From a virus (Duplodnaviria > Heunggongvirae > Uroviricota > Caudoviricetes), in the IMG/VR virus record IMGVR_UViG_2687453522_000004: a DNA stretch of 37,205 nucleotides; one strand, given 5' to 3'. Below are positions 8,674 through 33,972 of this stretch, in pieces; within the stretch, counting starts at the first letter, position 1; every line of letters starts with the position of its first letter. A model generated the notes under the pieces. The model had not been told where the DNA came from and ran no database searches. It was given only the letters and a program-made list of their open reading frames with translations. The translations under genes were made by a program, and so were the position numbers.

Positions 8674-8714
8674 GTAAGCGTGCAGCAAGAACCGTATTGA
8701 CGGGGATGTGTTAT

Positions 8715-10250
8715 TCAGTCGGCAGTGCTACGCGCCAGGGGGAGCAGTTCGCCGACCCGGTTTATCGGCCAGTCGGCTATGACGTCAAGGACATAGCGGA
8801 GGTAGCTTTCTGGCTCCACTCCGTTCAGTTTGCACGTCCCGATCAGGCTGTACAGCAGCGCTCCCCGCTCTCCTCCATGATCCGAACCGAAGAACAGGTA
8901 GTTTTTGCGGCCCAGACTGACCATCCGCAACGCATTTTCAGCGATGTTATTGTCCGCCTCAGCCCAGCCATCATCTGCATAGTACGTCAGCGCCGGCCAC
9001 TGGTTCAGGGCGTATGCGAACGCTTTCGCCAGTTCTGAGTGTCGCGACAGGGTTTTCATCTTTTCACGCAGCCAGCTTTCCAGGGATTTCAGCAGCGGTT
9101 TCGTTTTCAACTGACGTTCGGCAAGGCGCTGCTCCGCCGTCATTCCCCTTATCTCTGCCTCGATGGCGTACAGTTCGCCGATCCGTTTCAGCGCTTCCTC
9201 CGTCAGGGCTGACGGGGTGCGAACGTGCACATCGTGGATTTTACGGCGGGCGTGAGCCCAACAGGCGGCTTCCGTTATCCGGCCATCCCGGTACAGCTCG
9301 TTGAACCCGGCGTATGCATCCGCCTGCAGTACACCACTGAACCCCGCAAGATGGGTCTGCGGATGGATGCCTTTTCTGTCCGGGCTGTAAGCGAACCACA
9401 CCGCCGGCGCCAGCGTTGACCCGGCGTTACGGTCGTCACGAACGTAGGTCCATAACCGCCCGGTCTTCGTTTTCTTATTGCCTGGCAACAGCACCGGGAC
9501 AGGCGTGTCATCAGCATGGAGCTTACCGTCAGTCAGCACATAGTCCTGAAGCGCTTCTTCCAGCGGTGACAGTAGCCGGCAGCATGCATCCACCCAGCCC
9601 GACAGCAGTGAACGACTCAGCTCCACGCCCTGGCGGCCGTACATTTCAGACTGGCGGTACAGCGGGGTGTGCTCTGCATACTTTGAGATCAGCACGCGGG
9701 CCAGCAGCCCCGGTCCTGCGATACCCCGCTCGATGGGCCGTGAAGGCGCGGGGGCCTGCACGATGGCATCGCACTGAGTACAGGCATGCTTTTCACGTAC
9801 AGTCCGGATAACCCGGAAGGCGCTGCGCATCAGCTCCAGCTGTTCGGCGGCATCCTCACCCAGATAGCTCAGCGAGCCTCCACATTCCGGGCAGCATGAC
9901 GCTGCCGGCAGCAGCCGTTTTTCATCGCGGGGGAGTGATTCGGGGAACGGTTTGCGGGTGCGGGTTTGACGCAGCGGGCGCTGCACGGCCGGGTCGTCAA
10001 CCCGACCGGTAAGGGTATCACTTTCTTTCTGAAGTGCCTTCAGGTCAGCTTCCATCTGTGCGATACGACGGGAGACTTTTTCCGAGCGGCTGCCGAAGTT
10101 CATCCGGCGCAGCTTATCCAGCTGTGCCTGCAGATGGTCTATTTCGCGTTCACGCTCGTTCAGCTTTTCCTGCAGGGCACGGTTCAGCGCCTCCTGTTCG
10201 GCAAGGAGACGTTTCAGTGCATTGATATCGTCAGGAAGTGAGCTGCTCAT
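8715..10250 (-). CDS. tnpC: IS66-family transposase TnpC
   Basis: 511-aa ORF with N-terminal coiled coil/leucine zipper, CxxC zinc-finger motifs (CCPECGG...CTQCD) and a DDE-type core, typical of IS66 TnpC. Confidence 0.88.
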
Positions 10251-10298
10251 ACCGGGTATATTACCAGGCTCATTCAGCGTCGACCAGGATAAAGAGGC

Positions 10299-10646
10299 TT
10301 ACAACATAGTCAGGGACGTAAGCAGTCTTTTAGGCTGCCGCCAGTCGATACCTTCCAGCAGCATCGCCAGCTGTGCCGGTGTGAGGAACACTTTGCCATC
10401 CCGGGCTGACGGCCAGGCGAAGCGGCCGCGCTCCAGCCGTTTGGTCAGCAGACACAGTCCATCGCCGGTAGACCAGAGGAGCTTTACCTGACTGCCATTA
10501 CGCCCACGGAAGATAAAAACGTGACCTGACATCGGATCGTCTTTCAGCGTCGTCTGCACCTTTGCCGCCAGGCCGTTGAAGCCGTTTCTCATATCGGTGA
10601 TGCCAGCGACCAGCCAGATCTTTGTCCCTGATGGTAATGGGATCAA
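10299..10646 (-). CDS. tnpB: IS66-family TnpB (Orf2)
   Basis: 115-aa ORF MIPLPSGTKIWLVAGITDMRNGFNGLAAKV..., typical IS66 Orf2. Confidence 0.85.
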   Translation of the reverse strand: MIPLPSGTKIWLVAGITDMRNGFNGLAAKVQTTLKDDPMSGHVFIFRGRNGSQVKLLWSTGDGLCLLTKRLERGRFAWPSARDGKVFLTPAQLAMLLEGIDWRQPKRLLTSLTML

Positions 10647-11047
10647 CGTTTGAGCTCCCGTATCAGCAGGTTCAGGATATTTTCGCTGATGGCACCATTC
10701 AGACGGAGTGATCCGTGCCGGAACGTCACTTCACAGCTGATATTGAGTGATTCAGGTGTCGCAGCAGCTACAGGTTGTGACCGGGGGGAGGTTGTAGGGA
10801 CAACATCTTCGGCATCAAGTGTTATCGGGAGCAGCTCAGGCACGTTGTTTTCTGTTGTTGAAGGAGGACGTAGTTTTCCTTCGCGCCAGTACTGGCGCCA
10901 CTTGAACAGCAAATTATCGTTGATCCCATGCTCACGAGCGAGTTGCGCTACGGAGATCTCTGGTCGATGCGAGAGTTCAACCATTTTGATTTTGAACTCA
11001 ACGGGATAATTAGGGCTTTTTTTACGCACTGCGGTTAATGATTTCAT
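10643..11047 (-). CDS. tnpA: IS66-family TnpA (HTH accessory protein)
   Basis: 134-aa ORF, first gene of the IS66 triad, overlapping tnpB. Confidence 0.8.
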   Translation of the reverse strand: MKSLTAVRKKSPNYPVEFKIKMVELSHRPEISVAQLAREHGINDNLLFKWRQYWREGKLRPPSTTENNVPELLPITLDAEDVVPTTSPRSQPVAAATPESLNISCEVTFRHGSLRLNGAISENILNLLIRELKR

Positions 11048-11128
11048 GGATTGCGTCCACCATATTTGGTGTCCACTATTCTCTCAGGAATTTCAGGATC
11101 TGCCAGACGGTGCTGAGACGACGCTTAC

Positions 11129-11136
11129 ATTTGTTG
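11129..11136. repeat. Target-site duplication ATTTGTTG, right copy (IS66-family insertion)
   Basis: Exact 8-bp direct repeat of 8666..8673. Confidence 0.85.
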
Positions 11137-11161
11137 ACACGCGTACATAGCCAATAAGCAT
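11129..11161 (-). pseudogene. Serine DNA invertase, N-terminal fragment (MLIGYVRVSTN) with Shine-Dalgarno GGGGG, cut off by the IS66-family insertion
   Basis: On the minus strand, ATG CTT ATT GGC TAT GTA CGC GTG TCA ACA AAT then runs into the IS terminal repeat. Joining it to 8665..8105 restores a 197-codon invertase. Confidence 0.85.
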
Positions 11162-11188
11162 GAGCATCCCCCTGAATAAAAACCGGAG

Positions 11189-11704
11189 ATGATGCCACTT
11201 GCCCGTTATCTCTGCATTTTCATAAACGTTGGTTTGGGAGAAGGCTCTGTATTACCCGTTGGTGTGCCTGTTCCGTGGCCTTCAGCCACACTGCCAACAG
11301 GCTGGCTGAAATGCAACGGGGCGGCATTTTCTGCTGAAGAATACCCGGAACTGGCAAAGGCTTACCCGACAAATATATTGCCTGATTTACGTGGTGAATT
11401 TATTCGTGGCTGGGATGACGGGCGCGGAGTGGACAGTAGCCGGACGTTGTTGTCGTGGCAAAAAGGCTCTTATCTGGTTCAGGAAGCCAATATATCACCC
11501 GACAGCGTGGTGCAGTTTTCGGTAAACGACATTGCCCTGCTGGGATGGGATAAAACTGAAACCAATTCAGATATTCTCAGAGCGAAAAGTATACCTACAG
11601 AACATATCTGGAACCCCGTTCCAGTGGGAGCCTGGGGGATTCAGTATCTGGGTTATGCAAGGCCACGTAACATTGCATTTAACTACATCGTAAGGGCTGC
11701 ATGA
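11189..11704 (+). CDS. Alternative tail-fibre C-terminal segment (Sv'-like), currently not joined to the constant part; would fuse to H after inversion
   Basis: The open frame passes through the crossover site, encoding ...FINVGLGEGSVLPVGVPVPWPSATLPTGWLKCNGAAFSAEEYPELAKAYP..., a remembered Mu/P1-type fibre tip motif. There is no convincing independent start or promoter. A dedicated assembly gene follows. Confidence 0.7.
   Translation: MMPLARYLCIFINVGLGEGSVLPVGVPVPWPSATLPTGWLKCNGAAFSAEEYPELAKAYPTNILPDLRGEFIRGWDDGRGVDSSRTLLSWQKGSYLVQEANISPDSVVQFSVNDIALLGWDKTETNSDILRAKSIPTEHIWNPVPVGAWGIQYLGYARPRNIAFNYIVRAA
11219..11244 (+). repeat. Putative invertase crossover site (gix/hix/pix-like 26-bp imperfect palindrome) bounding the invertible tail-fibre segment on the invertase side
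   Basis: TTTTCATAAACGTTGGTTTGGGAGAA resembles the remembered Hin/Gin consensus TTnnnnnAAACC-NN-GGTTTnnnnnAA. Its 14 inner bases TTGGTTTGGGAGAA are identical in inverted orientation to the site at 13168..13193. Confidence 0.7.
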
Positions 11705-12321
11705 TGAGCAAGAAAACCATGACTACAGCGGTGCTGAATGAATCGCGGCTGGCAACAGTTGCAGGAGAGGTTGTTGTCCACAGCTACGATAATAAGACGC
11801 GGGAATACCTTTGCACGTCAACCGAATATCTGGCTGTGGGCGTTGGCCTTCCTGCACATTCATGCACTGATGCCCCCGGGGAAAGGCGGGCTGGTTATGC
11901 AATTTGCCGCACAGCCGACCTGACCGCGTGGGAGTACGTGCCGGACCATCGGGGTGAGACAGTCTATAACACAGAAACCCGTGAGGCAGCAGAAATCACC
12001 ACTCCGGGGGATTACCCTGAAAACACAACCACTGTCGCCCCGTTAACGCCATACGATGAATGGGATGGTGAGAAATGGGTGACAGATACTGAGGCACAGC
12101 ATAGCGCCGCAGTAGGCGCGGCAGAAACACAGCGACAGTCACTGATTGATACTGCAATGGCTTCCATTAATCTGATTCAACTGAAATTGCAGGCCGGGCG
12201 AAAACTGACGCAGACAGAAACCACCCGGCTTAACGTCGTGCTGGATTACATTGACGCGGTGACGGTAACTGATACCAGCACCGCGCCGGATATCAATTGG
12301 CCTGCTCCCCCGGAGGCGTAG
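11701..12321 (+). CDS. Tail fibre assembly protein (U'-like) paired with the alternative fibre segment
   Basis: 206 aa; start overlaps the Sv' stop (ATGA); converges on and overlaps the other assembly gene by 29 bp. Confidence 0.75.
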   Translation: MMSKKTMTTAVLNESRLATVAGEVVVHSYDNKTREYLCTSTEYLAVGVGLPAHSCTDAPGERRAGYAICRTADLTAWEYVPDHRGETVYNTETREAAEITTPGDYPENTTTVAPLTPYDEWDGEKWVTDTEAQHSAAVGAAETQRQSLIDTAMASINLIQLKLQAGRKLTQTETTRLNVVLDYIDAVTVTDTSTAPDINWPAPPEA

Positions 12322-12739
12322 GCCAGACGGGATTTGATGTATCAACGCGCATCAGTAAGACCCGATATTTTTTCCATTCAGACAACGCGGCGGTTTCTTC
12401 TGCCGTCGCGATTTCCGCATCAAAAGCATCCTGTCTCCAGACTATTTCCTTATCAGCCATTGAACGCAATACCGTTCTTTTCTGTTCAGCCTGAATAATC
12501 TGTTGTTCAGCGGAGAGTGGCGGGATATCAATCCATGCAGGATTACCATTTTTATCAGCCCCCAGCGTTTTGCCTTCTGGCGCTACGCCTGTGTAAATTG
12601 CTATTGTTTCATCATCAACATCAACGCCATTTTCAGGCCATGAACCGGCGCTGATATATACCTCTTTTAGTGCTTTCGGATAGAAAGAGCCTTTATAAAA
12701 TTTATTCATTCTTAATACCCCAGCGCGATAAAACAACAA
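12293..12739 (-). CDS. Tail fibre assembly protein (P2 G / Mu U-like) for the currently expressed fibre variant
   Basis: 148-aa ORF immediately downstream of the fibre gene; C-terminus ...SEWKKYRVLLMRVDTSNPVWPTPP resembles the conserved assembly-chaperone C-terminus. Confidence 0.8.
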   Translation of the reverse strand: MLFYRAGVLRMNKFYKGSFYPKALKEVYISAGSWPENGVDVDDETIAIYTGVAPEGKTLGADKNGNPAWIDIPPLSAEQQIIQAEQKRTVLRSMADKEIVWRQDAFDAEIATAEETAALSEWKKYRVLLMRVDTSNPVWPTPPGEQAN

Positions 12740-22767: not shown

Positions 22768-22940
22768 TGTCAGGAGTCCTGAATAGTGATTAGAGGAGTC
22801 ACATGTCGGCATCAGTTTCCCGACGATGCGCATCCTCCGCCATCAGTCCCGGATGGCTTATCACTGACACAACAGCACCTTAGCGAATCGCGGGGCGCGA
22901 CTCAGTAGCCTTGCCGTGTATTCATCACGGCGAGGTATTC

Positions 22941-24713
22941 ATGACCATCACCACAGACACCACTCTTTTACACGACCCGCGTCGTCAGGCGGCGCTGCTG
23001 TACTGGCAGGGATTTTCCGTGCCGCAGATTGCCGCCATGTTGCAGATGAAACGCCCGACGGTGCAGAGCTGGAAACAGCGCGACGGCTGGGACAGCGTTG
23101 CCCCCATCAGCCGTGTCGAAATGAGTCTGGAAGCGCGGCTGACCCAGCTCATCATCAAACCGCAGAAAACCGGCGGTGACTTCAAGGAAATTGACCTGCT
23201 GGGACGCCAGATTGAACGACTGGCACGGGTCAACCGTTACAGTCAGACCGGCAACGAGGCAGACCTTAATCCGAACGTCGCTAACCGCAACAAAGGCGGG
23301 CGGCGCAAACCGAAAAAGAATTTTTTCAGTGACGAGGCCATCGAAAAGCTGGAGCAGATTTTCTTTGAGCAGTCTTTCGAATATCAGTTGCACTGGTATC
23401 GCGCCGGGCTTGAGCACCGCATCCGCGATATCCTGAAATCCCGCCAGATTGGCGCGACGTTTTATTTTTCCCGCGAGGCGCTGCTGCGCGCCCTGAAAAC
23501 CGGTCATAACCAGATTTTTCTGTCGGCCAGTAAAACGCAGGCGTATGTGTTCCGCGAATACATCATCGCCTTTGCCCGGCTGGTTGACGTTGACCTGACC
23601 GGTGACCCGATTGTCCTGGGCAATAACGGCGCAAAACTGATTTTTCTCGGCACCAACTCCAACACCGCGCAGAGCCATAACGGCGACCTGTACGTCGACG
23701 AGATTTTCTGGATCCCGAATTTTCAGGTACTGCGTAAGGTGGCATCAGGTATGGCCTCACAGAGTCACCTGCGTTCGACCTATTTCTCCACCCCGTCCAC
23801 GCTGGCGCACGACGCCTACCCGTTCTGGTCGGGTGAACTGTTCAACCGGGGACGCGCCAGCGCCGCCGAACGCGTGGAAATCGACGTCAGTCATAACGCC
23901 CTTGCCGGTGGGCTTCTCTGTGCAGACGGCCAGTGGCGGCAGATTGTCACCATTGAGGACGCGCTGAAAGGCGGCTGCACGCTGTTCGACATTGAGCAGC
24001 TCAAACGTGAAAACAGCGCCGACGATTTTAAAAACCTGTTCATGTGTGAATTTGTTGACGACAAGGCGTCGGTGTTCCCGTTCGAGGAGCTGCAACGCTG
24101 CATGGTCGACACGCTGGAAGAATGGGAAGACTATGCGCCGTTTGCCGCGAATCCGTTCGGCTCCCGCCCGGTATGGATTGGTTACGACCCGTCACACCGT
24201 GGCGACAGCGCCGGATGCGTGGTACTGGCACCGCCGGTGGTGGCCGGTGGCAAATTCAGAATACTTGAGCGTCACCAGTGGAAAGGCATGGACTTTGCCA
24301 CTCAGGCGGAATCCATCCGCAAACTCACCGAAAAATACAACGTCGAATACATCGGTATTGATGCCACCGGCCTCGGTGTCGGCGTGTTCCAGCTCGTGCG
24401 CTCGTTCTATCCCGCCGCGCGCGATATCCGCTACACACCGGAAATGAAAACCGCAATGGTGCTCAAGGCAAAAGACGTCATCCGCCGTGGCTGTCTGGAA
24501 TATGACGTCAGCGCCACCGACATCACCAGCTCGTTTATGGCTATCCGCAAGACCATGACCAGCAGCGGACGCAGCGCCACGTATGAGGCCAGCCGCAGCG
24601 AGGAAGCCAGCCACGCCGACCTCGCCTGGGCGACCATGCACGCCCTGTTAAATGAGCCACTCACCGCCGGTATCAGCACCCCGCTGACATCCACCATTCT
24701 GGAGTTTTACTGA
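22941..24713 (+). CDS. P: Terminase large (ATPase) subunit gpP-like (start MTITTDTTLLHD; the ORF track starts at 22911)
   Basis: About 590 aa; GAGG Shine-Dalgarno before 22941; stop overlaps the Q start. Confidence 0.92.
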   Translation: MTITTDTTLLHDPRRQAALLYWQGFSVPQIAAMLQMKRPTVQSWKQRDGWDSVAPISRVEMSLEARLTQLIIKPQKTGGDFKEIDLLGRQIERLARVNRYSQTGNEADLNPNVANRNKGGRRKPKKNFFSDEAIEKLEQIFFEQSFEYQLHWYRAGLEHRIRDILKSRQIGATFYFSREALLRALKTGHNQIFLSASKTQAYVFREYIIAFARLVDVDLTGDPIVLGNNGAKLIFLGTNSNTAQSHNGDLYVDEIFWIPNFQVLRKVASGMASQSHLRSTYFSTPSTLAHDAYPFWSGELFNRGRASAAERVEIDVSHNALAGGLLCADGQWRQIVTIEDALKGGCTLFDIEQLKRENSADDFKNLFMCEFVDDKASVFPFEELQRCMVDTLEEWEDYAPFAANPFGSRPVWIGYDPSHRGDSAGCVVLAPPVVAGGKFRILERHQWKGMDFATQAESIRKLTEKYNVEYIGIDATGLGVGVFQLVRSFYPAARDIRYTPEMKTAMVLKAKDVIRRGCLEYDVSATDITSSFMAIRKTMTSSGRSATYEASRSEEASHADLAWATMHALLNEPLTAGISTPLTSTILEFY

Positions 24714-25747
24714 TGAGCAAGAAAAAAGGGAAAACACCGCAACCTGCGGCCAAAAAAATGACCGCCAGCGCCCCGAAAATGGAAGCATTCACCTTTGGCG
24801 AGCCGGTACCGGTACTCGACCGCCGTGACATTCTGGATTACGTCGAGTGCATCAGTAACGGCAGATGGTATGAACCACCGGTCAGCTTTACCGGTCTGGC
24901 AAAAAGCCTGCGTGCTGCCGTGCATCACAGCTCACCGATTTACGTCAAACGTAATATTCTGGCCTCAACATTTATCCCGCATCCGTGGCTTTCCCAGCAG
25001 GATTTCAGCCGCTTTGTGCTGGATTTTCTGGTGTTCGGTAATGCGTTTCTGGAAAAGCGTTACAGCACCACCGGTAAGGTCATCAGACTGGAAACCTCAC
25101 CGGCAAAATATACCCGTCGTGGCGTGGAGGAGGATGTTTACTGGTGGGTGCCGTCCTTCAACGAGCCGACACCTTTCACGCCCGGCTCCGTGTTTCACCT
25201 GCTGGAGCCGGATATCAATCAGGAGCTGTACGGCCTGCCAGAATATCTGAGCGCCCTTAACTCTGCCTGGCTGAATGAGTCGGCCACGCTGTTCCGCCGC
25301 AAGTATTACGAAAACGGCGCTCATGCCGGATATATCATGTACGTCACCGATGCCGTGCAGGACCGCAACGATATCGAAATGCTTCGCGAAAACATGGTTA
25401 AGTCGAAAGGCCGCAACAACTTTAAAAATCTGTTTCTCTATGCCCCGCAGGGGAAAGCTGACGGCATTAAAATTATCCCGCTCAGTGAAGTGGCAACGAA
25501 GGACGATTTTTTTAATATCAAAAAAGCCAGCGCCGCTGACCTGCTGGACGCGCACCGCATCCCCTTTCAGTTGATGGGCGGCAAGCCGGAGAACGTCGGG
25601 TCACTGGGAGATATTGAGAAAGTGGCAAAGGTCTTTGTCCGCAATGAGCTTATCCCGCTACAGGACAGGATCCGCGAGATAAACGGCTGGCTCGGTCAGG
25701 AGGTCATCCGCTTTAAAAACTACTCACTGGACACTGACAACGGCTGA
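24713..25747 (+). CDS. Q: Portal protein gpQ-like
   Basis: 344 aa; last gene before cos. Confidence 0.92.
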   Translation: MSKKKGKTPQPAAKKMTASAPKMEAFTFGEPVPVLDRRDILDYVECISNGRWYEPPVSFTGLAKSLRAAVHHSSPIYVKRNILASTFIPHPWLSQQDFSRFVLDFLVFGNAFLEKRYSTTGKVIRLETSPAKYTRRGVEEDVYWWVPSFNEPTPFTPGSVFHLLEPDINQELYGLPEYLSALNSAWLNESATLFRRKYYENGAHAGYIMYVTDAVQDRNDIEMLRENMVKSKGRNNFKNLFLYAPQGKADGIKIIPLSEVATKDDFFNIKKASAADLLDAHRIPFQLMGGKPENVGSLGDIEKVAKVFVRNELIPLQDRIREINGWLGQEVIRFKNYSLDTDNG

Positions 25748-25752
25748 ACATC

Positions 25753-25774
25753 GCCGCCTGCGGGCGGCTTTTTT
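25753..25774 (+). terminator. Rho-independent terminator after Q
   Basis: GCCGCC-TGCG-GGCGGC hairpin followed by TTTTTT, 6 nt after the Q stop. Confidence 0.7.
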
Positions 25775-25916
25775 ACATCCCGTCATCACGCCCTCACACG
25801 CTCACCACCGCACAAAACAGTCCGCAGGCAAACCAACGCCTCAACGGACAGACTAAGCGCCGTCACGACGCGCTGAGACGCTGAAAAAATAAAATCAGCA
25901 CCACCGCCAGCGCGCA

Positions 25917-25935
25917 GTGCTTTCCCCGCCTCGCC
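25917..25935 (-). other. cos site (19-nt cohesive end GGCGAGGCGGGGAAAGCAC on the minus strand)
   Basis: Plus strand GTGCTTTCCCCGCCTCGCC matches the remembered P2 cohesive-end sequence; it lies between the portal gene and the accessory hotspot, as expected. Confidence 0.75.
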
Positions 25936-26030
25936 CGCCCGCTTCATGGGGCGGTTTTGATGCAACCTCGTATTAAAGGGGACACCATAGCCCATCAAAC
26001 CTCAGACTTCGCCCCTAGCTAACGTTTATG

Positions 26031-26060
26031 AATGCAATGTAATGCAACTTAATGCAAGTT
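26031..26060 (+). repeat. Three tandem 10-bp repeats AATGCAA(T/C/G)(G/T)T upstream of the cargo gene
   Basis: AATGCAATGT AATGCAACTT AATGCAAGTT, ending 58 bp before the ATG at 26119. Confidence 0.6.
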
Positions 26061-26118
26061 ATGGTAATGATAATTCTGCGTTAACAATTAAACTAATGTA
26101 CCTGTAAGAGGATAAAAA

Positions 26119-28602
26119 ATGTCTGGTTTTTTCCTTGATTTAACCAAGCTTTCGCCCAGTGTAAATAGCGACACAGCGATTCCACCGCGAGATATATTTA
26201 CAGCTCTACCGAGCAAAGACACCAAATTTCAATACCCTCGAGATGTGCAATCAGAGGTCTGGGAAAAATGGTATGAAGCAAGGAGAAGCCCAACCAATGT
26301 AATAAAAATGAATACCGGAAGCGGTAAAACTTCAGTTGGGTTAATCATTCTTAAAAGCTGTATAAATGAAGGAGAAGGTCCCGCTGTATATGTTGTTCCT
26401 GACAACTATCTAGTTGAGCAAGTGGTTTTGGAGGCTAATCAACTTGGTATACCTGTAACTCAAGATGAGAGGTCCCCCAAATTTATTGCAGGTAAAGAAA
26501 TTTTAGTTACAAATATATTCAAAGTGGTTAATGGACGTTCTGCATTTGGCGTTGGAGATGATGGACAAAGAATACCAATAGGTTCTATAATAATTGACGA
26601 TGCTCACGCTTGCCTTTCTTCAATTGAAGAACAATTCTCCATTAGCATTCAAAAAAACAACCCTGCCTATGATAAATTATTCAGAATTTTTGAAAATTCA
26701 CTAATGACACAAGCTGGTGCAAAAACACTAGAGATAAAATCCGGCGATAGAAATGCTTATGTGAGAGTTCCATTTTGGAAATGGCAAGAAAGCATAAATG
26801 ATATAATGACAATCTTGTTAGAAAATAAAGACCATGATGACTTGAGTTTCAAATGGCCATTAATAAAAGACAATCTAATATTATCGAAATGCGTTGTAAG
26901 TGCTTCCAAAATAGAGATATCACCTCATTGCATACCAATCCAAATGATCCCAAGCCTATCAAACGCAAGAAGAAAAATATTCATGACAGCTACTCTTGTC
27001 GATGAATCCATTCTAGCGAGCCACTTCGGAATAACGGATGAATCACTCTCTAATCCGATAACACCAAAAACAATTGGTGATATTGGTGATAGAATGATAC
27101 TAATGCCTCAGGTTATAAACCCTAGTCTTTCTGATGTAGATATCAAAGCTATGTGCAAGGAGATATCCTCCAAACATAATGTTGTTGTAATTGTACCATC
27201 CGATTACAGAACTAGATTTTGGCAAGATGTTGCAGACAGAATATTAGATAAAAATACAATTTATCAAGGTGTACAAGAATTAAGGACACAACATGTTGGC
27301 TTAGTAGTCCTAGTTAATAGATATGATGGTATTGATTTACCAAATACCGCATGTCGTCTATTAGTAATAGATGGACTTCCTGACGTTCGTAGACTAATAG
27401 ATAAAGTCTCACAAAGCTTATTGCTTGGAAGCGAAAAAACCAAAGATGAAATTATCCAGAAAATTGAACAAGGAATGGGGCGAGGAGTGAGATCAAGCGA
27501 CGACTTCTGCGGAGTGATCTTACTTGGCAAAGCATTAAATGGCGCTGTTTTCCTTGGCTCCTCCTTAGAAAGGTTTTCTCCAGCAACGAAAGCACAAATT
27601 CAACTTTCACAGCAATTGGTATCGATACTGCCGGATACAACTATTGATTCAATCAAAGGTGCTCTTGATTATTGTCTGTTACGCAATTCTGACTGGGTCT
27701 CAAAAAGCAAAGGTATATTGACTGGCTTAACATTGGAAAATAAGCAGATTGACCAGCATACTATAAATAAAAGATTGGCATATGACTTAGCATCACGAAA
27801 TATGTTTCAACAAGCCGCTTTAACTCTAAAAAATGATAGTAGTACAGCTGACAAAGTTTATAAGGGTTATCTAAAAGAACATGCTGCGGAATATGTAAAC
27901 TTATATGACAAATCTGAAGCTCAGATATTGCTTCAGTCTGCATCAAACGATAACTATCGGGTATTAAAACCACTAATCGGCGTAACATATAATAGACTTA
28001 ATGGTGCGGCACTTGAACAGGCCAGGGAATGTAGCTCCTATCTCAGAAGTAATTTTGAATCGGCCAATCAAGTCGTTGTGCATACTAATTCAATAATAGA
28101 AAACCTTATTTTCTCCGAGGGCACATCGAATCCCTTCGAAGATGCTATCGAAAAAGTTGCATATTTGGTCGGTTTTCGTAGCCAACGGCCAGAAAATGAT
28201 ACAGGTAAAGGACCTGACAATTTATGGGCAATGGGAGAAAACAATTATCTAGTAATTGAATGCAAAAATGGAGCAACCGCAGAAAGAATAAGTAAGCATG
28301 ACTGCAATCAGTTAAATGGGTCGGGTGCATGGTTCAGAAACATGTATGATCAAACTGCTACCGCCACACCTATAATGATACATCACTCTAATATGCCTGA
28401 ATATGCCGCAACACTAAACGAAGGGTCTCGAATAATGACCATAAATGATCTTGAACGTTTTAAAGCATCTATCCTCAGTTTTATCACGGCCATTTGTACA
28501 AGTGATAAACGACACGATGAGATATTTATAAGAGAACAATTGATCACATGTAAATTACGTGCATCAGACATAGTTGAAACCTATACGCGAAACCCTCGTT
28601 AA
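26119..28602 (+). CDS. Low-GC cargo gene: 827-aa SF2 (DEAH/ResIII-like) helicase fused to a C-terminal PD-(D/E)xK nuclease; candidate single-gene anti-phage defence protein
   Basis: Uninterrupted ORF with AAGAGG Shine-Dalgarno. Helicase motifs: MNTGSGKT (Walker A), VVPDNY, IIIDDAHAC (motif II), FMTATL (motif III), QGMGRGVR (motif VI). C-terminal ...GPDNLWAMGENNYLVIECK... gives a D ... E-x-K pattern. Codon usage is AT-rich, unlike the flanking phage genes. Confidence 0.6.
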   Translation: MSGFFLDLTKLSPSVNSDTAIPPRDIFTALPSKDTKFQYPRDVQSEVWEKWYEARRSPTNVIKMNTGSGKTSVGLIILKSCINEGEGPAVYVVPDNYLVEQVVLEANQLGIPVTQDERSPKFIAGKEILVTNIFKVVNGRSAFGVGDDGQRIPIGSIIIDDAHACLSSIEEQFSISIQKNNPAYDKLFRIFENSLMTQAGAKTLEIKSGDRNAYVRVPFWKWQESINDIMTILLENKDHDDLSFKWPLIKDNLILSKCVVSASKIEISPHCIPIQMIPSLSNARRKIFMTATLVDESILASHFGITDESLSNPITPKTIGDIGDRMILMPQVINPSLSDVDIKAMCKEISSKHNVVVIVPSDYRTRFWQDVADRILDKNTIYQGVQELRTQHVGLVVLVNRYDGIDLPNTACRLLVIDGLPDVRRLIDKVSQSLLLGSEKTKDEIIQKIEQGMGRGVRSSDDFCGVILLGKALNGAVFLGSSLERFSPATKAQIQLSQQLVSILPDTTIDSIKGALDYCLLRNSDWVSKSKGILTGLTLENKQIDQHTINKRLAYDLASRNMFQQAALTLKNDSSTADKVYKGYLKEHAAEYVNLYDKSEAQILLQSASNDNYRVLKPLIGVTYNRLNGAALEQARECSSYLRSNFESANQVVVHTNSIIENLIFSEGTSNPFEDAIEKVAYLVGFRSQRPENDTGKGPDNLWAMGENNYLVIECKNGATAERISKHDCNQLNGSGAWFRNMYDQTATATPIMIHHSNMPEYAATLNEGSRIMTINDLERFKASILSFITAICTSDKRHDEIFIREQLITCKLRASDIVETYTRNPR

Positions 28603-28611
28603 ACAGTAAAA

Positions 28612-28634
28612 GACCACCTCCTAAGGAGGTGGTC
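28612..28634. terminator. Probable bidirectional rho-independent terminator after the cargo gene
   Basis: Perfect 10-bp stem GACCACCTCC / GGAGGTGGTC with a 3-nt loop, 10 nt after the stop, with T/A-rich runs on both sides. Confidence 0.65.
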
Positions 28635-28841
28635 CTTGTATAATAAAAAGAACCAGTTTTTATTGTTAATAATACAATTCTCGAATTTCAACATAGACTT
28701 ATTGTACCACCAGTAAAATCATCAATATTAATATATAGAAAAAAAGAAATGTCGATTGTTTGTACGTAGCGTAATCATATTAACATATACAGATAAACAG
28801 CAACCTTACCATTATGCAACCAATCTAAAACATTATGTTTA

Positions 28842-29834
28842 TTACTCTGAATAACCAGAAAACCCACTCCACTCATCTACACTAGGATATGAAAATTGCT
28901 TTTCATTGTAATTGACGATCGCACCGCGTACTAACGCCTCAAGCTCCCATCGCTGCGGCCTGATACCGTTTTGAGCAAGGTCAACACGGATACGGGTGAT
29001 TTGCAATCGTTCAGACCGGGTCAGTCTGGCCGATGGTGCAATTTCATGTGGTTTTAACGGGCTTCCGTTTCTTTGCTGACGACCTGGCGTTCTCCGACCG
29101 TGTTTTAATGCACCCCTGAGCGCCCTCACGACCTCCGGGTCATTCCATTCGATAACACCGTCATCAACCAGATTTAGCACTGCTGCGGCGTGCTCAGAAG
29201 GTGTGGGAGCCGGTAACGAAGTATCACCACCGGTGAGCTTTCCACAGTTATTGACAGGACTCCGAGGCGCGGCGATGCCGCTTTTTAAAGTCAAAGGCTC
29301 AACGACCGGAACTTTCGGCACAATGCGCCAGTCCGTCGTTCTGGTGATATGAATATGACGCGCGCCGAGATGCGGCGCGTAAATGCCGACCACTCTCTCG
29401 ACTTCTTCCTCGTACTCGTTAACGTCATCCGACAGACTACGGGCGACCCTGACAGTCTGACAATCGCGCGGGACATTTGCCCCGCCCTGCGCGCTGATAT
29501 ACAGCGCAAAATCACCACTGTCTGCGGCGGCGCGTGCAGCCTCGACGCGCTCGTCAAACTCATCAGCAATGCTGACGCCGCGAGGCAATTTGCGTAGTTC
29601 ACGGTAAGCCCCCATTGTCGGCAGGCCAACCGTTTTAAATTGCGGAATGCGCCACGTTGACGCCCATGCGGTAACAGCCGCTGCAGTGTCTTTCAGCGGC
29701 CTGCCGGTGTCGTTATCGAGCTGACCATCCAGTGCATAGCCGTCGATGTTTTTTGAAATGTATTTCGCGATATATCCCGCAGCACCGCCCCGGTTAAGGT
29801 GTTTTGCCTGAAAACGGTTTCGCGCGGCTCCTCT
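28842..29834 (-). pseudogene. A: Replication initiation protein gpA-like, C-terminal fragment (about 330 codons) cut off from the N-terminal part by an IS21-family insertion
   Basis: Reading upstream from the ORF start at 29615 stays open and P2 A-like (...RGAARNRFQAKHLNRGGAAGYIAKYISKNIDGYALDG...) up to the IS boundary at 29835. Confidence 0.85.
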
Positions 29835-29919
29835 TGCGTATTACCGTGAAGGAGATCGGTGAGTAACATCGATGGAGATCGGTTCGTGTCACTTTCACAG
29901 AACCGTTTTTAAATTACCT

Positions 29920-30669
29920 TCACTGATCTCCTTCGGTCAACGGAGATTGTATTTTCCGCATTGATTCTCCTTTAAGTTCGATCTTGATACTGCCATGAAC
30001 CAGTCGATCTAGGATGGCATCCGCATGTGTGGAGTCTCCGATCATTTTGTACCAGTTTTCCACCGGCAACTGGCTCACTACGATGATTGAGCCTCGTTGG
30101 TACATCAGATCCACTATTTCCAGCAGGTCGCTACGCTGTTCTGATGAGAGAGGTTCCAGCCCCCAGTCATCCAGAAGCAGCAGATCGCTATTATTCAGCC
30201 TGGTCAAAAGTTTGCTGTATCTTCCATCAGCATGCCCCTGATAGCACTGTTCCATCAGCGCTTTAAGGCGATAATAGTAGACCTTGTATCCCTGTCGGCA
30301 GGCATTATGACCAAGTGCACATGCCAGGAACGTTTTACCGCTGCCGGTGGCCCCGGTCAGTAAAATATTTTGTTTCAGGGTTAACCAGTTTCCCTGACTG
30401 AGTGAACGGATGAGGGCCCTGTCCAGCCCTCTATTGTTACGATAATCCAGCTTTGATAACTCAGCATTAAGTCTGAACCGTGCATGTTTGATCAGACGCT
30501 CTGCCTTCCTGTTTTCACGGCAGGTTAGTTCTTCTGCTGTCAGTAATGACAGGCGTTCTTCGAAGCCCAGCTCCTGGTATGTGCCCGGTTGAGCAAGTTG
30601 CTTTTTAAGCGCATCACGGAAGCCGGTGAGTTTAAGTGCGGTCAGTTGTTCGTAAAGATGATTCATCAT
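29920..30669 (-). CDS. istB: IS21-family ATP-binding helper IstB
   Basis: 249 aa with Walker A (GATGSGKT) and Walker B (LLLLDDWG) motifs, DnaC-like. Confidence 0.88.
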   Translation of the reverse strand: MMNHLYEQLTALKLTGFRDALKKQLAQPGTYQELGFEERLSLLTAEELTCRENRKAERLIKHARFRLNAELSKLDYRNNRGLDRALIRSLSQGNWLTLKQNILLTGATGSGKTFLACALGHNACRQGYKVYYYRLKALMEQCYQGHADGRYSKLLTRLNNSDLLLLDDWGLEPLSSEQRSDLLEIVDLMYQRGSIIVVSQLPVENWYKMIGDSTHADAILDRLVHGSIKIELKGESMRKIQSPLTEGDQ

Positions 30670-30680
30670 TGGATCCCGTA

Positions 30681-32222
30681 TCAGTGGTAATACTCACTGC
30701 CGCGTACGTTTTCGTGTTCCATCGTGGATAACAGATCTGGTTTTGGATCCTGAACAGGTTGTTTATCCAGACCTTTTTCCAGGATCGATTTAATACCTGA
30801 CAGACGCCATACCTTTGTTTCCAGAGCTCTTGCACATGCTGCATTAAGTCTGGCTTTACTGTATTTTTTATGAAGGTTCAGGAGTCCAAGGCAGAAGCGA
30901 TAGCTTTGTTCCGGATGTGGACGAGAGTTCAGTATATGAAGCACATAACTATGAGTTTCACTGCCTATGTGCCCCGCCCATTCCAGAAGACGCTCTGGCG
31001 TCCAGGTGGCATGCTGTCGATGAGCTTCAGGCATGTGCTCGTTGCGGGTACTGTAGCCATAAGTACGCTTGCGCGGGTGCACAGCAACCTCCTGCCCCTG
31101 ATTGAAGAGTCTTACCAGTTCTCCGGAGATCCATGCTTCCAGTTGCTGGCCTAACAGCGAACATGGAACCGAGTAGTAATGTTTGTCGATTTCCACGTGG
31201 TAATCGGCATGAACTCTGACTTTCTTCACCAGGGTGTAACTGTAACTGGCTTCAGGAAGAGGCTTCAGTGCGGGTTTATCAAGCTGGATGAAGAGTTCTG
31301 CACGTGAATAACCCAACTTCTGCATTATTTTGTTATTCAGTCTTTCCAGCAACTCCCGAATGCGCTGATTAAGCGATGCAAGGCTGTAGAAGATCTCATG
31401 CCTGATTCGGGCCATGATCCAGCGTTCAACAACCTGAACGCCAACTTCAGCTTTGGCTTTATCTTTCGGTTTACGTGGCCGCGCAGGCAAAACTGCGACA
31501 TTATAATGCTCAAGCATCTGCTGGTAGGTAGGGTTAACGTCAGGATCATACTTACATGCCCTGGATGTGGCGCTTTTCAGATTGTCCGGAACAACAAGTT
31601 CAGGAACGCCACCCAACCACTGGAAGCAGCGAACATGACTCATCACCCAGTCTTCAAGCTGCTGAGACCAGGTGGCCTCTGCCCATGTGTAACTTGATGC
31701 CCCGAGAACAGCTACGATGACCTGAGCAGTTCTTATTTCTCCGGTCTCAGGGTCGGTAACGCCAACGGTAGGTCCACAGTAATCAACGAAAAGTTTTTCG
31801 CCAGCTTTATGTACCTGACGCATTGATGGTGAAGTGGTTTTGAGCCATTCACGGTACATCCGGCAGTAATGGTTATAGCTGTAAAAACCGCCTGGATTAC
31901 GCTCACAGTATTCTTCCCAGAGTAGCTGCAGCGTCACGCATTTATTACGCAGTTCCCGGTGTACTGTAGCCCAGTCAGGCAGAGAGTGCTTCTTCATCTT
32001 AACCTGGGTCTGAAGGAACGCATGTTTTAGTTTTGTATCATCCCATCCTGTAGGTAAGGGCCACTGCTTTATGCCAAGTTGAGCCGCCCGATTAGCATAT
32101 CTGGATACAACGGAAGGGGAGATTGCAAGACTACGACCAATTTGTCGATGGCTGAGTCCAACACCGTATTTAAGCCTAAGAATTTCTTTAAGTTTTCTCA
32201 TAGAAATTGGAACTGTTGGCAT
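30681..32222 (-). CDS. istA: IS21-family transposase IstA
   Basis: 513-aa ORF with N-terminal HTH and DDE core, upstream of and nearly abutting istB. Confidence 0.85.
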   Translation of the reverse strand: MPTVPISMRKLKEILRLKYGVGLSHRQIGRSLAISPSVVSRYANRAAQLGIKQWPLPTGWDDTKLKHAFLQTQVKMKKHSLPDWATVHRELRNKCVTLQLLWEEYCERNPGGFYSYNHYCRMYREWLKTTSPSMRQVHKAGEKLFVDYCGPTVGVTDPETGEIRTAQVIVAVLGASSYTWAEATWSQQLEDWVMSHVRCFQWLGGVPELVVPDNLKSATSRACKYDPDVNPTYQQMLEHYNVAVLPARPRKPKDKAKAEVGVQVVERWIMARIRHEIFYSLASLNQRIRELLERLNNKIMQKLGYSRAELFIQLDKPALKPLPEASYSYTLVKKVRVHADYHVEIDKHYYSVPCSLLGQQLEAWISGELVRLFNQGQEVAVHPRKRTYGYSTRNEHMPEAHRQHATWTPERLLEWAGHIGSETHSYVLHILNSRPHPEQSYRFCLGLLNLHKKYSKARLNAACARALETKVWRLSGIKSILEKGLDKQPVQDPKPDLLSTMEHENVRGSEYYH

Positions 32223-32415
32223 AGGTATCCTTTACCGGAATGGCAAAAGATACAGATCAACACACCTGTGAAGTTCCAATAACATTGATGGAGATCACTG
32301 AATAACAAAATGAGTCAAAAGTGATCTCCATCGATGTTATTCAGCGATCTGTTCAAATGTTATTACCCGATCTCGATGGAAGTTATTGAGTGATCTCCTT
32401 TCATGAAAATACGCA

Positions 32416-33707
32416 CCTCTTTCGTCGCCATCCTCTTTGAGCGCATAGCGACGCATGATTTCGATAATCTGGTTACGCTGGCGTGGATGACAAAAAAGCA
32501 TCATATGCCAGTGCGGCGTTCCGTCGTGGTGTGGCTCGACGACTCGCAAACCGTAGACCTGTAAATCATTATCCTTGAATGCCGTGCGCATCAGGCTCCA
32601 GATACGGCAGAGATAACGCTGCGCATCCTTTGGATTAAATGCCTCATCGTTCCAGCCGTGATTAAGCTGAACGGTTTTACTTTCGCCTTTTCCGACCTGA
32701 CGTGTCGGGTGATACTTTGACGGCGCGGTCAGCGTGATAAACATCCCCACATCACCCTCTGCGGCGGCGTAACGCTCAATACCGGCAATGGTGTTCATCA
32801 GCTCCATCCGGCGAATTTCAGGATTAGAAATACTGCCCATCACCTTACTGATAAGGTCGATGCGCTCGCCGGTTTCCCTGTTTTCAAGGTCACACGATTT
32901 AAGAAATTCCAGATTTGCCTGGCGGCGCGCACGCACATCACGAATGGCGTGTTTACTGGCATAAGGAGAACGGTCTTTATTGACCTCCCCGACAGCTATC
33001 AGTAACGCCTCATGCCAGCGCATACGCTGGCCTTTAAGCTGATGAGTCCACCACTCATCGTTAAACAGGCGGGCAATGGCAGAATATGCCTGCCTCGTGG
33101 TCATCTGTCCTTTACGGTATTTTTTCCAGTAGAGCGGGGAAATATTGAAAGCACGTGCAGCGCCAGCAACATGACCATACAGGTGAGCCTGCGCCTCATC
33201 CGTAAACAGCGATTCTTTTTCACCATGCGCATCAACCCATGCATCGCAGAGTTCCTCATACATCATGAAAAGCTGCGATGAGATACGGGCGGCAAACTTT
33301 TTCAGCTCCTTGTCATTCATTCCCGGCAGGCGCGCATAGTGGTCACGCTCTGCCAGAAACAGCAACGACGCGTCGGTGTTCATTTCATGGCGCTGATTCA
33401 CACGCTCAATGCGCGGCCATAAACGACGCTGAAAAGTAGATGTGAGGAAATAAAACCCGTGCACCGGGCTTTTATTGCGCCGGATGTAGTCATAGCGTGA
33501 AGTAAACAGCGAGCGCAAAAAGTAAGGCAGGCGGTTAATCGTGGATAAAACACCTTGCACCTGACGCATCTCGTCACGTGTAAGAGGTCTTTCGCGCCCG
33601 ACAGCCTCGCGTGGCGCGTTCCATGCATAAGCACCGGTAAACGCCTTACCGGTGCCTGCGGTAAATGCTGACGGAGGGACAAAACGCCCGGAGGCTTTAA
33701 CGGCCAT
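32416..33707 (-). pseudogene. A: Replication initiation protein gpA-like, N-terminal fragment (about 430 codons); the frame runs into the IS and stops at 32337
   Basis: Start MAVKASGRFVPPSAF (the ORF track extends to 33749); the P2 A-like sequence ends ...EDGDERGA at the IS junction, then reads IS-derived residues. Confidence 0.85.
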
Positions 33708-33972
33708 ATGAGCCAAAAGCCTCTGAACAACGCTTGCTGAGTTGCTCAACCTGCGCGTTTAAATCAGCAAAAGATTTTGCGCTTCCGGTCAGAATATCGT
33801 GATGCATCAGGCCGGAAACGAGCTGGCCTAATTTCGGGTAATAACCAACCACCGCCAGCCATTCCTGACCGGCGTTTTTACCGCTTTCCGCTCTCTTTTT
33901 CTCGTGGAGAATAAACTGAAAGCTGTCACTGGTAACGACATAACGTTCGCCAATTTCAATACGAATACTCAT
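33697..33972 (-). CDS. Small early-region hypothetical protein (P2 orf83-like position)
   Basis: 91-aa ORF immediately upstream of A, overlapping its start. Confidence 0.6.
   Translation of the reverse strand: MSIRIEIGERYVVTSDSFQFILHEKKRAESGKNAGQEWLAVVGYYPKLGQLVSGLMHHDILTGSAKSFADLNAQVEQLSKRCSEAFGSYGR

What the first reader, a model, noticed from the sequence alone, without database searches (positions are those of the whole stretch)
26119..28602. Single-gene helicase-nuclease cargo in the cos-proximal (old/tin) hotspot: candidate undescribed anti-phage system
An intact 827-aa ORF sits between cos and the end of gene A, where P2 carries old and tin and where P2-like phages are known to swap defence cargo. 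The protein is AT-rich against GC-rich phage genes, so it looks horizontally acquired. Its N-terminal two thirds carry a full SF2 helicase motif set (MNTGSGKT, VVPDNY, IIIDDAHAC, FMTATL, QGMGRGVR). The C-terminal 140 aa carry a PD-(D/E)xK nuclease signature (GPD ... LVIECK). The layout resembles a type III Res subunit, but no Mod methyltransferase or any partner gene is present. It may belong to a helicase-nuclease family such as Hna, or be a new one; I cannot tell without a search.
Basis: partly seen in the sequence, partly recalled or inferred. Interest (0 to 1): 0.9.

Follow-up and report, generated by a model that had tools for sequence, protein, structure and literature searches.

The report
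Hna defence gene in P2 prophage hotspot
The 827-residue helicase-nuclease gene next to the cos site of this P2-like E. coli prophage is a clear member of Hna, a single-protein anti-phage system described in 2023 whose structure is now solved, so it is a real defence cargo gene but not an undescribed system.

Summary
An intact 827-aa ORF (26119..28602, +) lies in a 2.8-kb low-GC insert (37% against 56%). The insert sits between the P2 cos core (25917-25935) and the 3' end of gene A, with no partner gene.

The "undescribed system" reading does not hold. The protein is an Hna-family helicase-nuclease:
- It aligns with S. meliloti Hna (SMa2245) at 32% identity over 751 residues (E=3e-129).
- It is the only strong sequence hit to the solved Hna structures 9yhn/9ykj/10uj (E=7e-121).
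- Its AlphaFold model matches the Hna monomer best (E=6e-60, TM 0.72).
- Hna and this protein both score over 1000 bits, full length, on the same PADLOC model (PDC-S28).
- The tested ATP-binding and nuclease residues of Hna are all conserved (R41/Q44, K70/T71, D160/D161, K716).

The likely mechanism, inferred by homology, is a 3'-5' ssDNA exonuclease held as an ATP-bound autoinhibited dimer. [quoted passage not shown]

Close homologues sit in P2, P4-like, lambdoid and integrase-island hotspots. The exact allele is in 70 of 5,426 complete E. coli genomes. Only the N-terminal dimerisation loop differs notably from S. meliloti Hna. This is ordinary and of low novelty.

The parts
24713..25747 (+). 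Portal gene (gpQ), the left conserved flank of the hotspot
   Evidence: 344-aa ORF. It is annotated as phage portal protein in the identical E. coli M217 locus. It is ~95% identical to P2-like phages.
25917..25935 (-). P2-type cos core (19-nt cohesive-end sequence GGCGAGGCGGGGAAAGCAC)
   Evidence: Exact match found. That this 19-mer is the P2 cohesive end is from my own knowledge. The cos-adjacent position of the hotspot is stated in PMC9122126.
25965..28779 (.). Low-GC cargo insert (2.8 kb) carrying one gene
   Evidence: Homology to P2-like phages L004/L005 ends at 25963/25964 and resumes at 28780/28869. GC is 0.369 against 0.54-0.56 in the flanks. Other P2-like phages carry DUF4209, Fic/VbhT, DUF3850 or CDT genes at this place.
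25965..26118 (+). AT-rich upstream region holding three AATGCAA repeats at a 10-bp period (26031-26057), a -10-like GATAAT (26069-26074) and the Shine-Dalgarno AGAGGA (26107-26112)
   Evidence: The strict sigma-70 scan found no promoter here, so the promoter is not established. The repeats are absent upstream of homologues.
26119..28602 (+). hna-family gene, 827 aa (WP_000012516.1)
   Evidence: PADLOC PDC-S28 1054.6 bits, full length. BLASTP against S. meliloti Hna E=3e-129. PDB phmmer E=7e-121. Foldseek to 9yhn E=6e-60.
26236..26622 (+). HEL1 ATP-binding core (aa 40-168): Q motif R41/Q44, Walker A K70/T71 (26308-26331), Walker B D160/D161 (26587-26613)
   Evidence: Pfam ResIII 40-168 and DEAD. 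The columns are invariant and equivalent to Hna R36/Q39, K72/T73 and D162/D163 (residues).
27316..27531 (+). HEL2 lobe core (aa 400-471) with motif VI QGMGRGVR (27469-27492)
   Evidence: Pfam Helicase_C_2 400-471. E450-Q-G-M-G-R455 and R458 are invariant.
28126..28437 (+). C-terminal PD-(D/E)xK nuclease core (aa ~670-773): E674, D700 (GPD, 28210-28227), E714-x-K716 (28249-28266)
   Evidence: These columns are invariant. K716 aligns with Hna K729, whose K729A mutant lacks nuclease activity. [quoted passage not shown]
28609..28637 (.). Perfect GC-rich hairpin 7 nt after the stop codon, a likely transcription stop between the convergent hna and gene A
   Evidence: 13-pair stem, 3-nt loop; scored as terminator-like on the minus strand. 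Homologues also carry a hairpin just after their stop codons.
28842..29839 (-). 3' fragment of replication gene A, the right conserved flank of the hotspot
   Evidence: Annotated 'replication endonuclease, missing N-terminus' in M217. It is 93.6% identical to intact gpA of phage vB_EcoM-569R9.

Best explanation
The gene encodes an Hna-family protein, a single-polypeptide anti-phage abortive-infection system. It is carried as self-contained cargo in the cos-proximal Q-A hotspot of a P2-like E. coli prophage.

Shown here:
- Family membership.
- Conservation of the tested ATP-binding and nuclease residues.
- The Hna fold.
- The hotspot location and the mobility of the gene among mobile elements.

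Inferred by homology to S. meliloti Hna (PMC13381803):
- In uninfected cells the protein binds ATP through its DinG-like SF2 helicase lobes. It sits as an autoinhibited homodimer joined through a disordered N-terminal loop, with the C-terminal PD-(D/E)xK domain uncoupled.
[quoted passage not shown] - The resulting DNA damage stops phage replication and kills or arrests the infected cell, so no progeny are released.
- The lysogen population, and with it the prophage, is protected from competing phages.
For: Sequence:
- 32% identity over 751 aa to SMa2245, E=3e-129.
- It is the only strong PDB sequence hit, to the Hna entries 10uj/9yhn/9ykj, E=7e-121.

Profile:
- The window protein scores 1054.6 bits and authentic Hna 1020 bits on the same PADLOC model PDLC04986. 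Both matches are full length.

Residues:
- R41/Q44, K70/T71, D160/D161 and K716 match Hna's R36/Q39, K72/T73, D162/D163 and K729. All are invariant.

Structure:
- The AF2 model has pLDDT 83.5.
- Its best match is the Hna monomer, E=6e-60, TM 0.72/0.73 over 838 columns. XPD/DinG/CasDinG follow at about 1e-10 with TM of 0.41 or less.
- Only one Cys lies between Walker A and Walker B, so there is no Fe-S cluster, as in Hna.
- Residues 33-38 are low-confidence. This fits the unstructured dimer loop.

Context:
- The Q-A hotspot beside cos is a published defence hotspot.
- Homologues of 69-80% identity sit in a Rouxiella P2 Q-A hotspot, beside a P4-like primase, in a lambdoid prophage, and in an integrase island with Lamassu-type genes.

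Literature:
- Hna confers Abi defence triggered by phage SSB.
- Hna is annotated in E. coli NILS08.
Against: - No experiment was done on this allele, and I could not establish which E. coli Hna Sather et al. tested.
- Identity to the characterised protein is only 32%.
- The first 59 residues do not align pairwise.
- The residues shown to form the Hna dimer interface (T30/D31/P34) align to D34/T35/Q38, so they are not conserved in identity. Hna also has a 7-residue insert before Walker A that this clade lacks. Dimer autoinhibition and SSB recognition may therefore differ in detail.
- No promoter was identified by the consensus scan.
- The prophage is IS-ridden, although the gene itself is intact and 100% conserved in 70 genomes.
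Confidence: 0.82

Rival explanations
1. It is an Hna-family member that works differently from the S. meliloti paradigm. It may sense a different phage factor than a T7 gp2.5-like SSB, may be regulated other than by the T30/D31/P34-type dimer, or may degrade phage replication intermediates directly without killing the cell.
For: - The N-terminal 59 residues do not align pairwise.
- The dimer-interface residues are not conserved in identity, and a 7-aa insert is absent.
- Even so, the loop (P31, K33, Y39, P40) is invariant within the 50-sequence clade. This suggests a conserved but different interface.
- The authors of PMC13381803 themselves expect diversity in trigger recognition among orthologues.
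Against: - All catalytic and ATP-binding residues and the overall fold are the same.
- An E. coli Hna is reported to be SSB-activated as well.
- The loop is predicted disordered, like the Hna loop.
Confidence: 0.13
2. It is an orphan type III restriction Res-like subunit, or another restriction-type enzyme, that cuts foreign double-stranded DNA directly.
For: Pfam ResIII matches residues 40-168 (E=1e-9), and a PD-(D/E)xK motif lies at the C-terminus.
Against: - There is no Mod or any other partner gene in the 2.8-kb insert.
- The second lobe is Helicase_C_2 (DinG/XPD type), not the Res type.
- No NCBIfam restriction family comes near its cut-off.
- The full-length match is to Hna. Hna does not cut dsDNA or unwind it.
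Confidence: 0.02
3. It is a DinG/XPD-like repair or replication helicase that serves the prophage's own DNA metabolism and has no role in defence.
For: The next-best structural neighbours are XPD, DinG and CasDinG. PHROG 'DNA helicase' families give weak partial hits.
Against: - Those matches cover only the helicase core, at TM of 0.41 or less and 10-16% identity.
- There is no Fe-S cluster.
- The gene lies in the accessory hotspot, not among replication genes. It is replaced by unrelated cargo in sister phages.
- Homologues move between unrelated mobile elements and defence islands.
- The characterised homologue is a defence protein.
Confidence: 0.03

Closest known systems
Hna (helicase-nuclease abortive infection), S. 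meliloti SMa2245; structures 9yhn, 9ykj, 10uj
   Same: - A single stand-alone protein of ~830-845 aa.
- DinG-like SF2 lobes without an Fe-S cluster, plus a C-terminal PD-(D/E)xK domain.
- All tested catalytic and ATP-binding residues are conserved.
- Alignable over residues 61-792, and the best structural match.
- The same PADLOC profile at an equal score.
   Different: - Only 32% identity.
- The N-terminal ~59 residues diverge.
- The dimer-interface residues T30/D31/P34 are replaced by D34/T35/Q38.
- There is no 7-aa insert before Walker A.
- The carrier is a P2-like prophage hotspot in E. coli rather than a rhizobial megaplasmid.
- This allele's phage spectrum and trigger are untested.
PADLOC candidate system PDC-S28
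   Same: Full-length match to model PDLC04986 (6-825 of 827 aa, 1054.6 bits). It is a single-gene system.
   Different: Nothing structural differs. PDC-S28 is simply an unnamed catalogue label. Authentic Hna hits the same model at 1020 bits, so the two names cover one family.
ExoDinG / DinG / XPD / CRISPR type IV CasDinG (Csf4) helicases
   Same: The SF2 Rad3/XPD-type helicase core. Supported by the Pfam Helicase_C_2 and PADLOC typeIV_DinG partial hits and by Foldseek E~1e-10.
   Different: - No Fe-S cluster.
- A reduced Arch domain, as reported for Hna.
- An added C-terminal PD-(D/E)xK nuclease.
- TM of 0.41 or less and 10-16% identity.
P2 old and tin (and other Q-A hotspot cargo)
   Same: The same genomic slot between cos/Q and A. 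The same role as prophage-borne exclusion cargo.
   Different: The proteins are unrelated. Old is an ATPase-TOPRIM nuclease, and no old or tin homologue is present in this window's hotspot.
Hachiman (HamAB) and Nhi
   Same: Helicase plus nuclease defence logic. Activation is linked to phage SSB or to DNA replication intermediates.
   Different: Hachiman has two proteins, with a DUF1837 nuclease. Nhi is an SF1 helicase with an N-terminal nuclease. Neither gave a significant family-level match here.

Membership tests
Hna | Single stand-alone protein of ~840 aa that acts without a partner gene | tested here: met
   827 aa. The 2.8-kb insert holds no other ORF above 45 aa outside the gene and no annotated neighbour. 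Hna's size and single-effector nature are stated.
Hna | Full-length sequence homology to S. meliloti Hna (SMa2245) | tested here: met
   BLASTP gives 32% identity over 751 aa, E=3e-129. phmmer against PDB Hna gives E=7e-121. Both proteins score over 1000 bits on the same profile.
Hna | N-terminal SF2 helicase motifs: Q motif R/Q, Walker A K/T, Walker B DD, motif VI | tested here: met
   R41/Q44, K70/T71, D160/D161 and QGMGRGVR 451-458 are all invariant columns shared with Hna R36/Q39, K72/T73 and D162/D163.
Hna | C-terminal PD-(D/E)xK nuclease with the catalytic lysine equivalent to K729 | tested here: met
   D700 and E714-C-K716 are present, and K716 aligns with K729. E674 is also invariant.
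Hna | Fold: DinG/XPD-like HEL1-HEL2 without an Fe-S cluster, a long linker and a NUC domain | tested here: met
   AF2 model pLDDT 83.5. The best PDB match is the 9yhn Hna monomer, TM 0.72/0.73, E=6e-60. Only one Cys lies between Walker A and B.
Hna | Conserved unstructured HEL1 loop forming the autoinhibitory dimer interface (T30, D31, P34) | tested here: inconclusive
   The loop is present, predicted disordered (pLDDT below 50 at 33-38) and invariant within this clade. Its residues differ from Hna, however: D34/T35/Q38.
Hna | 3'-5' ssDNA exonuclease activity, no duplex unwinding, inhibition by ATP | not testable with these tools
   A biochemical property reported for S. meliloti Hna.
Hna | Phage protection by abortive infection, triggered by a phage SSB | not testable with these tools
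   A phenotype reported for S. meliloti Hna and, according to PMC10732053, for an E. coli Hna. Whether that is this allele is unknown.
PADLOC PDC-S28 | Full-length match to the family HMM, single gene | tested here: met
   PDLC04986: E=0, 1054.6 bits, residues 6-825 on profile positions 2-826 of 831.
Type III restriction-modification (Res subunit) | Adjacent Mod methyltransferase gene forming the Res2Mod2 enzyme | tested here: not met
   There is no methyltransferase or any partner in the insert or its flanks. No restriction-family NCBIfam hit comes near its cut-off.
DinG/XPD (Rad3) helicases | Four-cysteine Fe-S cluster domain inserted in HEL1 | tested here: not met
   Only C81 lies between Walker A (aa 64-71) and Walker B (aa 157-165). 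Structural similarity is limited to the helicase core.

The most novel reading that the evidence does not exclude
This enterobacterial Hna clade has a differently built but clade-invariant N-terminal interface loop, and it hops between P2, P4-like, lambdoid and integrase-island hotspots. It may recognise a different phage trigger, or a different class of SSB, than S. meliloti Hna. It could then serve mainly in competition between temperate phages and satellites, giving a natural pair of Hna variants for mapping how trigger specificity is encoded.
Probability: 0.25. Interest if true: 0.35.

Novelty: already known. Interest (0 to 1): 0.15.

Why it matters
It matters little as a discovery. The locus is one more case of a known defence gene (Hna) in a known prophage defence hotspot.

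Practical value:
- The RefSeq product name 'DEAD/DEAH box helicase family protein' (WP_000012516.1) can be upgraded to Hna.
- PADLOC's PDC-S28 can be equated with Hna.
- The allele is a convenient E. coli-native orthologue, with its own flanking signals. It could be used to test whether the ATP-dimer/SSB-trigger model from S. meliloti generalises.

Tried and rejected
- Sather et al. 2023, by DOI and by PubMed id: not held. I therefore could not identify which E. coli Hna was tested there. I rely on PMC10732053's statement and my own recollection of the abstract.
- Supplements of Rousset et al. 2022, searched for the accession and helicase terms: one malformed query, then a time-out.
- Supplements of the 2026 P2/P4 hotspot preprint: no 'Hna' or 'PDC-S28' strings.
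- 'PDC-S28' in the literature: one unrelated survey paper only.
- Pairwise alignment of the N-terminal 114 aa to PDB Hna: residues 1-59 failed to align. This was resolved only by multiple alignment.
- Sigma-70 consensus scan: no promoter in the 154-bp upstream region, and the overall count was no higher than in shuffles.
- Rfam: nothing in 25700-29000.
- Phage isolate genomes: none carries this gene. The single 30%-identity hit is a Salmonella genomic contig.
- Upstream AATGCAA repeats: not conserved in homologues, so I did not build on them.
- Type III Res and DinG/XPD assignments: considered and rejected (see the membership tests).
Full report
**Observation**

The window holds an intact ATG-initiated ORF at 26119..28602 on the + strand, encoding 827 residues. 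RefSeq annotates the same coordinates in the identical E. coli M217 locus as WP_000012516.1, 'DEAD/DEAH box helicase family protein'.

GC content drops to 0.34-0.40 across 26001-29000, against 0.53-0.58 on both sides. Computed on the insert itself it is 0.369, against 0.562 and 0.543 in the flanks.

- MNTGSGKT at aa 64-71
- VVPDNY at 92-97
- IIIDDAHAC at 157-165
- FMTATL at 288-293
- QGMGRGVR at 451-458
- GPDNLW at 698-703
- LVIECK at 711-716

**Setting**

Upstream lie the P2-type terminase (22911..24713) and portal (24713..25747) genes. Downstream on the opposite strand is the 3' end of replication gene A.

The 19-nt P2 cohesive-end sequence occurs at 25917-25935. The identity of the 19-mer as the P2 cos core is from my own knowledge.

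BLAST against two P2-like phages shows ~95% identity up to 25963/25964 and again from 28780/28869. Nothing is shared in between. In that slot other P2-like phages carry DUF4209, Fic/VbhT, DUF3850, cytolethal distending toxin or an exoribonuclease.

This is the gpQ-gpA, cos-adjacent hotspot that Rousset et al. described as a reservoir of anti-phage systems and where P2 itself carries old and tin (PMC9122126).

The insert contains one gene only:
- The intergenic stretches hold ORFs of 21-45 aa at most, and none is annotated.
- There is no Rfam match.
- A good Shine-Dalgarno (AGAGGA, 26107-26112) precedes the start codon.
- A perfect 13-bp hairpin (28609-28637) follows the stop codon.
- The consensus scan found no sigma-70 promoter in the 154-bp upstream region.

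**Identity**

Pfam finds ResIII/DEAD over residues 40-172 and Helicase_C_2, the DinG/XPD type of second lobe, over 400-471. PADLOC gives a full-length match of 1054.6 bits to its candidate single-gene system PDC-S28. PHROGs gives a function-unknown family.

The decisive result is the search of solved structures. The only strong hit (E=7e-121, residues 60-792) is an 845-aa chain in entries 10uj/9yhn/9ykj. The paper that deposited 9yhn and 9ykj identifies it as Hna from Sinorhizobium meliloti.

I recovered the full Hna sequence (SMa2245) from pSymA. Three comparisons followed:
- BLASTP gives 32% identity over 751 residues, E=3e-129.
- Authentic Hna scores 1020 bits, full length, on the same PADLOC model PDLC04986. 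PDC-S28 and Hna are therefore the same family, and the window protein fits that profile as well as Hna does.
- An AlphaFold2 model built on a 50-sequence alignment (mean pLDDT 83.5, pTM 0.68) matches the Hna monomer best (9yhn, E=6e-60, TM 0.72/0.73 over 838 columns). XPD, DinG and CasDinG follow at about 1e-10 with TM of 0.41 or less, covering only the helicase core.

**Residue-level membership**

The structural paper names these functional residues:
- Q motif R36/Q39
- Walker A K72/T73
- Walker B D162/D163
- nuclease K729 (K729A is nuclease-dead)
- dimer-interface loop T30/D31/P34

In a 13-sequence alignment that includes Hna, the first four sets fall in invariant columns. They correspond to R41/Q44, K70/T71, D160/D161 and K716 of the window protein. 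Motif III (A291/T292), motif VI (E450-R455, R458), E674 and G698-P-D700 are invariant too.

Only one cysteine lies between Walker A and Walker B. There is therefore no Fe-S cluster, as reported for Hna.

The one feature that does not carry over cleanly is the dimer loop. Hna T30/D31/P34 align with D34/T35/Q38, and Hna has a 7-residue insert before Walker A that this clade lacks. The first 59 residues do not align pairwise at all.

The loop is nevertheless invariant within the 50-sequence clade (P31, K33, Y39, P40). The model predicts it to be disordered (pLDDT below 50 at 33-38). This fits a conserved, flexible interface with a different sequence.

**How it most likely works**

Family membership, catalytic residues, fold and genomic setting are shown here. 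The mechanism is inferred from S. meliloti Hna.

In S. meliloti, Hna alone confers resistance to diverse tailed phages by abortive infection. Expression of a phage SSB is enough to trigger it.

Biochemically Hna behaves as follows:
- It is a Mg-dependent 3'-5' ssDNA exonuclease that does not unwind duplex DNA.
- ATP binding stabilises a homodimer in which nuclease activity is suppressed.

I expect the window protein to work in the same way. The caveat is that the interface loop, and hence possibly the trigger, differs. [quoted passage not shown] I could not determine whether that E. coli protein is this allele, because the original paper is not held.

**Distribution**

- The 2.8-kb segment is 100% identical in 70 of 5,426 complete E. 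coli genomes, always on the chromosome.
- The family has at least 3,958 members in the large protein database, spanning Enterobacterales, Pseudomonas, Legionella and cyanobacteria.
- It occurs on 268 plasmid records.

The close homologues are cargo of several mobile elements:

| Homologue | Identity | Setting |
|---|---|---|
| Rouxiella | 69% | Same Q-A hotspot of a P2-like prophage with intact gene A |
| Pantoea | 80% | Just downstream of the primase of a P4-like satellite |
| Cronobacter | 77% | Lambdoid prophage, between the lambda-P-like gene and the RusA/Q genes |
| Pectobacterium | 80% | Integrase-linked island with Lamassu-type genes |

Each copy has its own AT-rich leader and a hairpin after the stop codon, but the non-coding sequences are not conserved. 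This matches the reported extensive horizontal transfer of hna. DefenseFinder already labels Hna in natural E. coli isolates such as NILS08.

**Rivals**

- An orphan type III Res subunit is excluded. There is no Mod gene, the second lobe is of the DinG type, and the full-length homologue neither cuts nor unwinds dsDNA.
- A housekeeping DinG/XPD-like helicase is unlikely. There is no Fe-S cluster, structural similarity is confined to the core, and the gene sits in an accessory slot that sister phages fill with unrelated cargo.
- The only live alternative is a within-family one: this clade may sense a different trigger, or be regulated somewhat differently, than S. meliloti Hna.

**Verdict**

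The headline claim of an undescribed system does not stand. This is Hna, already described, structurally solved and catalogued (as PDC-S28 in PADLOC), sitting where P2-like phages are known to carry defence cargo. Novelty is 'already known' and interest is low (0.15).

The most novel reading still open is a divergent trigger specificity encoded by the N-terminal loop. I give it a probability of about 0.25 and modest interest if true.

Noticed in passing
window 29840-32412 (IS); gene A fragments 28842-29839 and 32413-33749: An IS21-family element (ISEc12; istB 29920-30669, istA 30681-32222) splits replication gene A, so this prophage cannot replicate. 42 of the 70 hna-carrying complete E. coli genomes share the same hna / gene A / IS junction. 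The rest presumably keep an intact gene A.
   Followed up: partly
window 8105-12739: An IS66-family element lies beside a resolvase-type DNA invertase (8105-8650). Its transposase is at 8715-10250 and an HTH_Tnp_1 ORF at 10643-11047. Next to these are oppositely oriented tail-collar and tail-fibre-assembly genes (11189-12321 +, 12293-12739 -). This looks like an invertible tail-fibre segment disrupted or bordered by an IS.
   Followed up: partly
window 1-1370: Another transposase pair lies at the left edge of the window: an HTH_28/HTH_Tnp_1 ORF at 849-1370, and an ORF at 1-852 at the very start of the window. It is a third IS in or beside the prophage tail region.
   Followed up: no
window 26031-26057: Three exact AATGCAA repeats at a 10-bp period lie just upstream of a -10-like GATAAT (26069-26074) in the hna leader. 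They could be an operator or phased element. They are absent upstream of homologues in other elements.
   Followed up: partly
L002 3950-6424 (S. meliloti GR4 plasmid pRmeGR4a): S. meliloti carries a second, 824-aa Hna paralogue. It is closer to the E. coli protein (39.9% identity) than the characterised SMa2245 is (32%). It hits PDC-S28 at 1008 bits and lies in a region that also holds cytosine methyltransferase and Vsr endonuclease genes.
   Followed up: partly
NC_001949.1 38022-40514 (Lactococcus lactis plasmid, hit H34); NZ_CP016506.1 and related ~37.7-kb Salmonella/E. coli plasmids (H39-H47): Full-length Hna-family homologues (32% and 29% identity) occur on a 60-kb lactococcal plasmid. They also occur on a family of small Salmonella/E. 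coli plasmids. Enterobacteria therefore carry at least two distinct Hna lineages.
   Followed up: no
PADLOC models PDLC04986/PDLC04987: PADLOC-DB v2.0.0 has no model named Hna among the hits. Authentic S. meliloti Hna is captured by the 'candidate' label PDC-S28 (1020 bits). The two names therefore denote one family.
   Followed up: yes
L012 3396-8490 and L013 2071-7141 (Pantoea, P4-like satellite): An 80%-identical hna sits directly after the P4-type primase gene of a satellite that also carries Ogr/Delta, AlpA and Ash genes. The same clade is thus shared between helper-type phage and satellite hotspots.
   Followed up: partly
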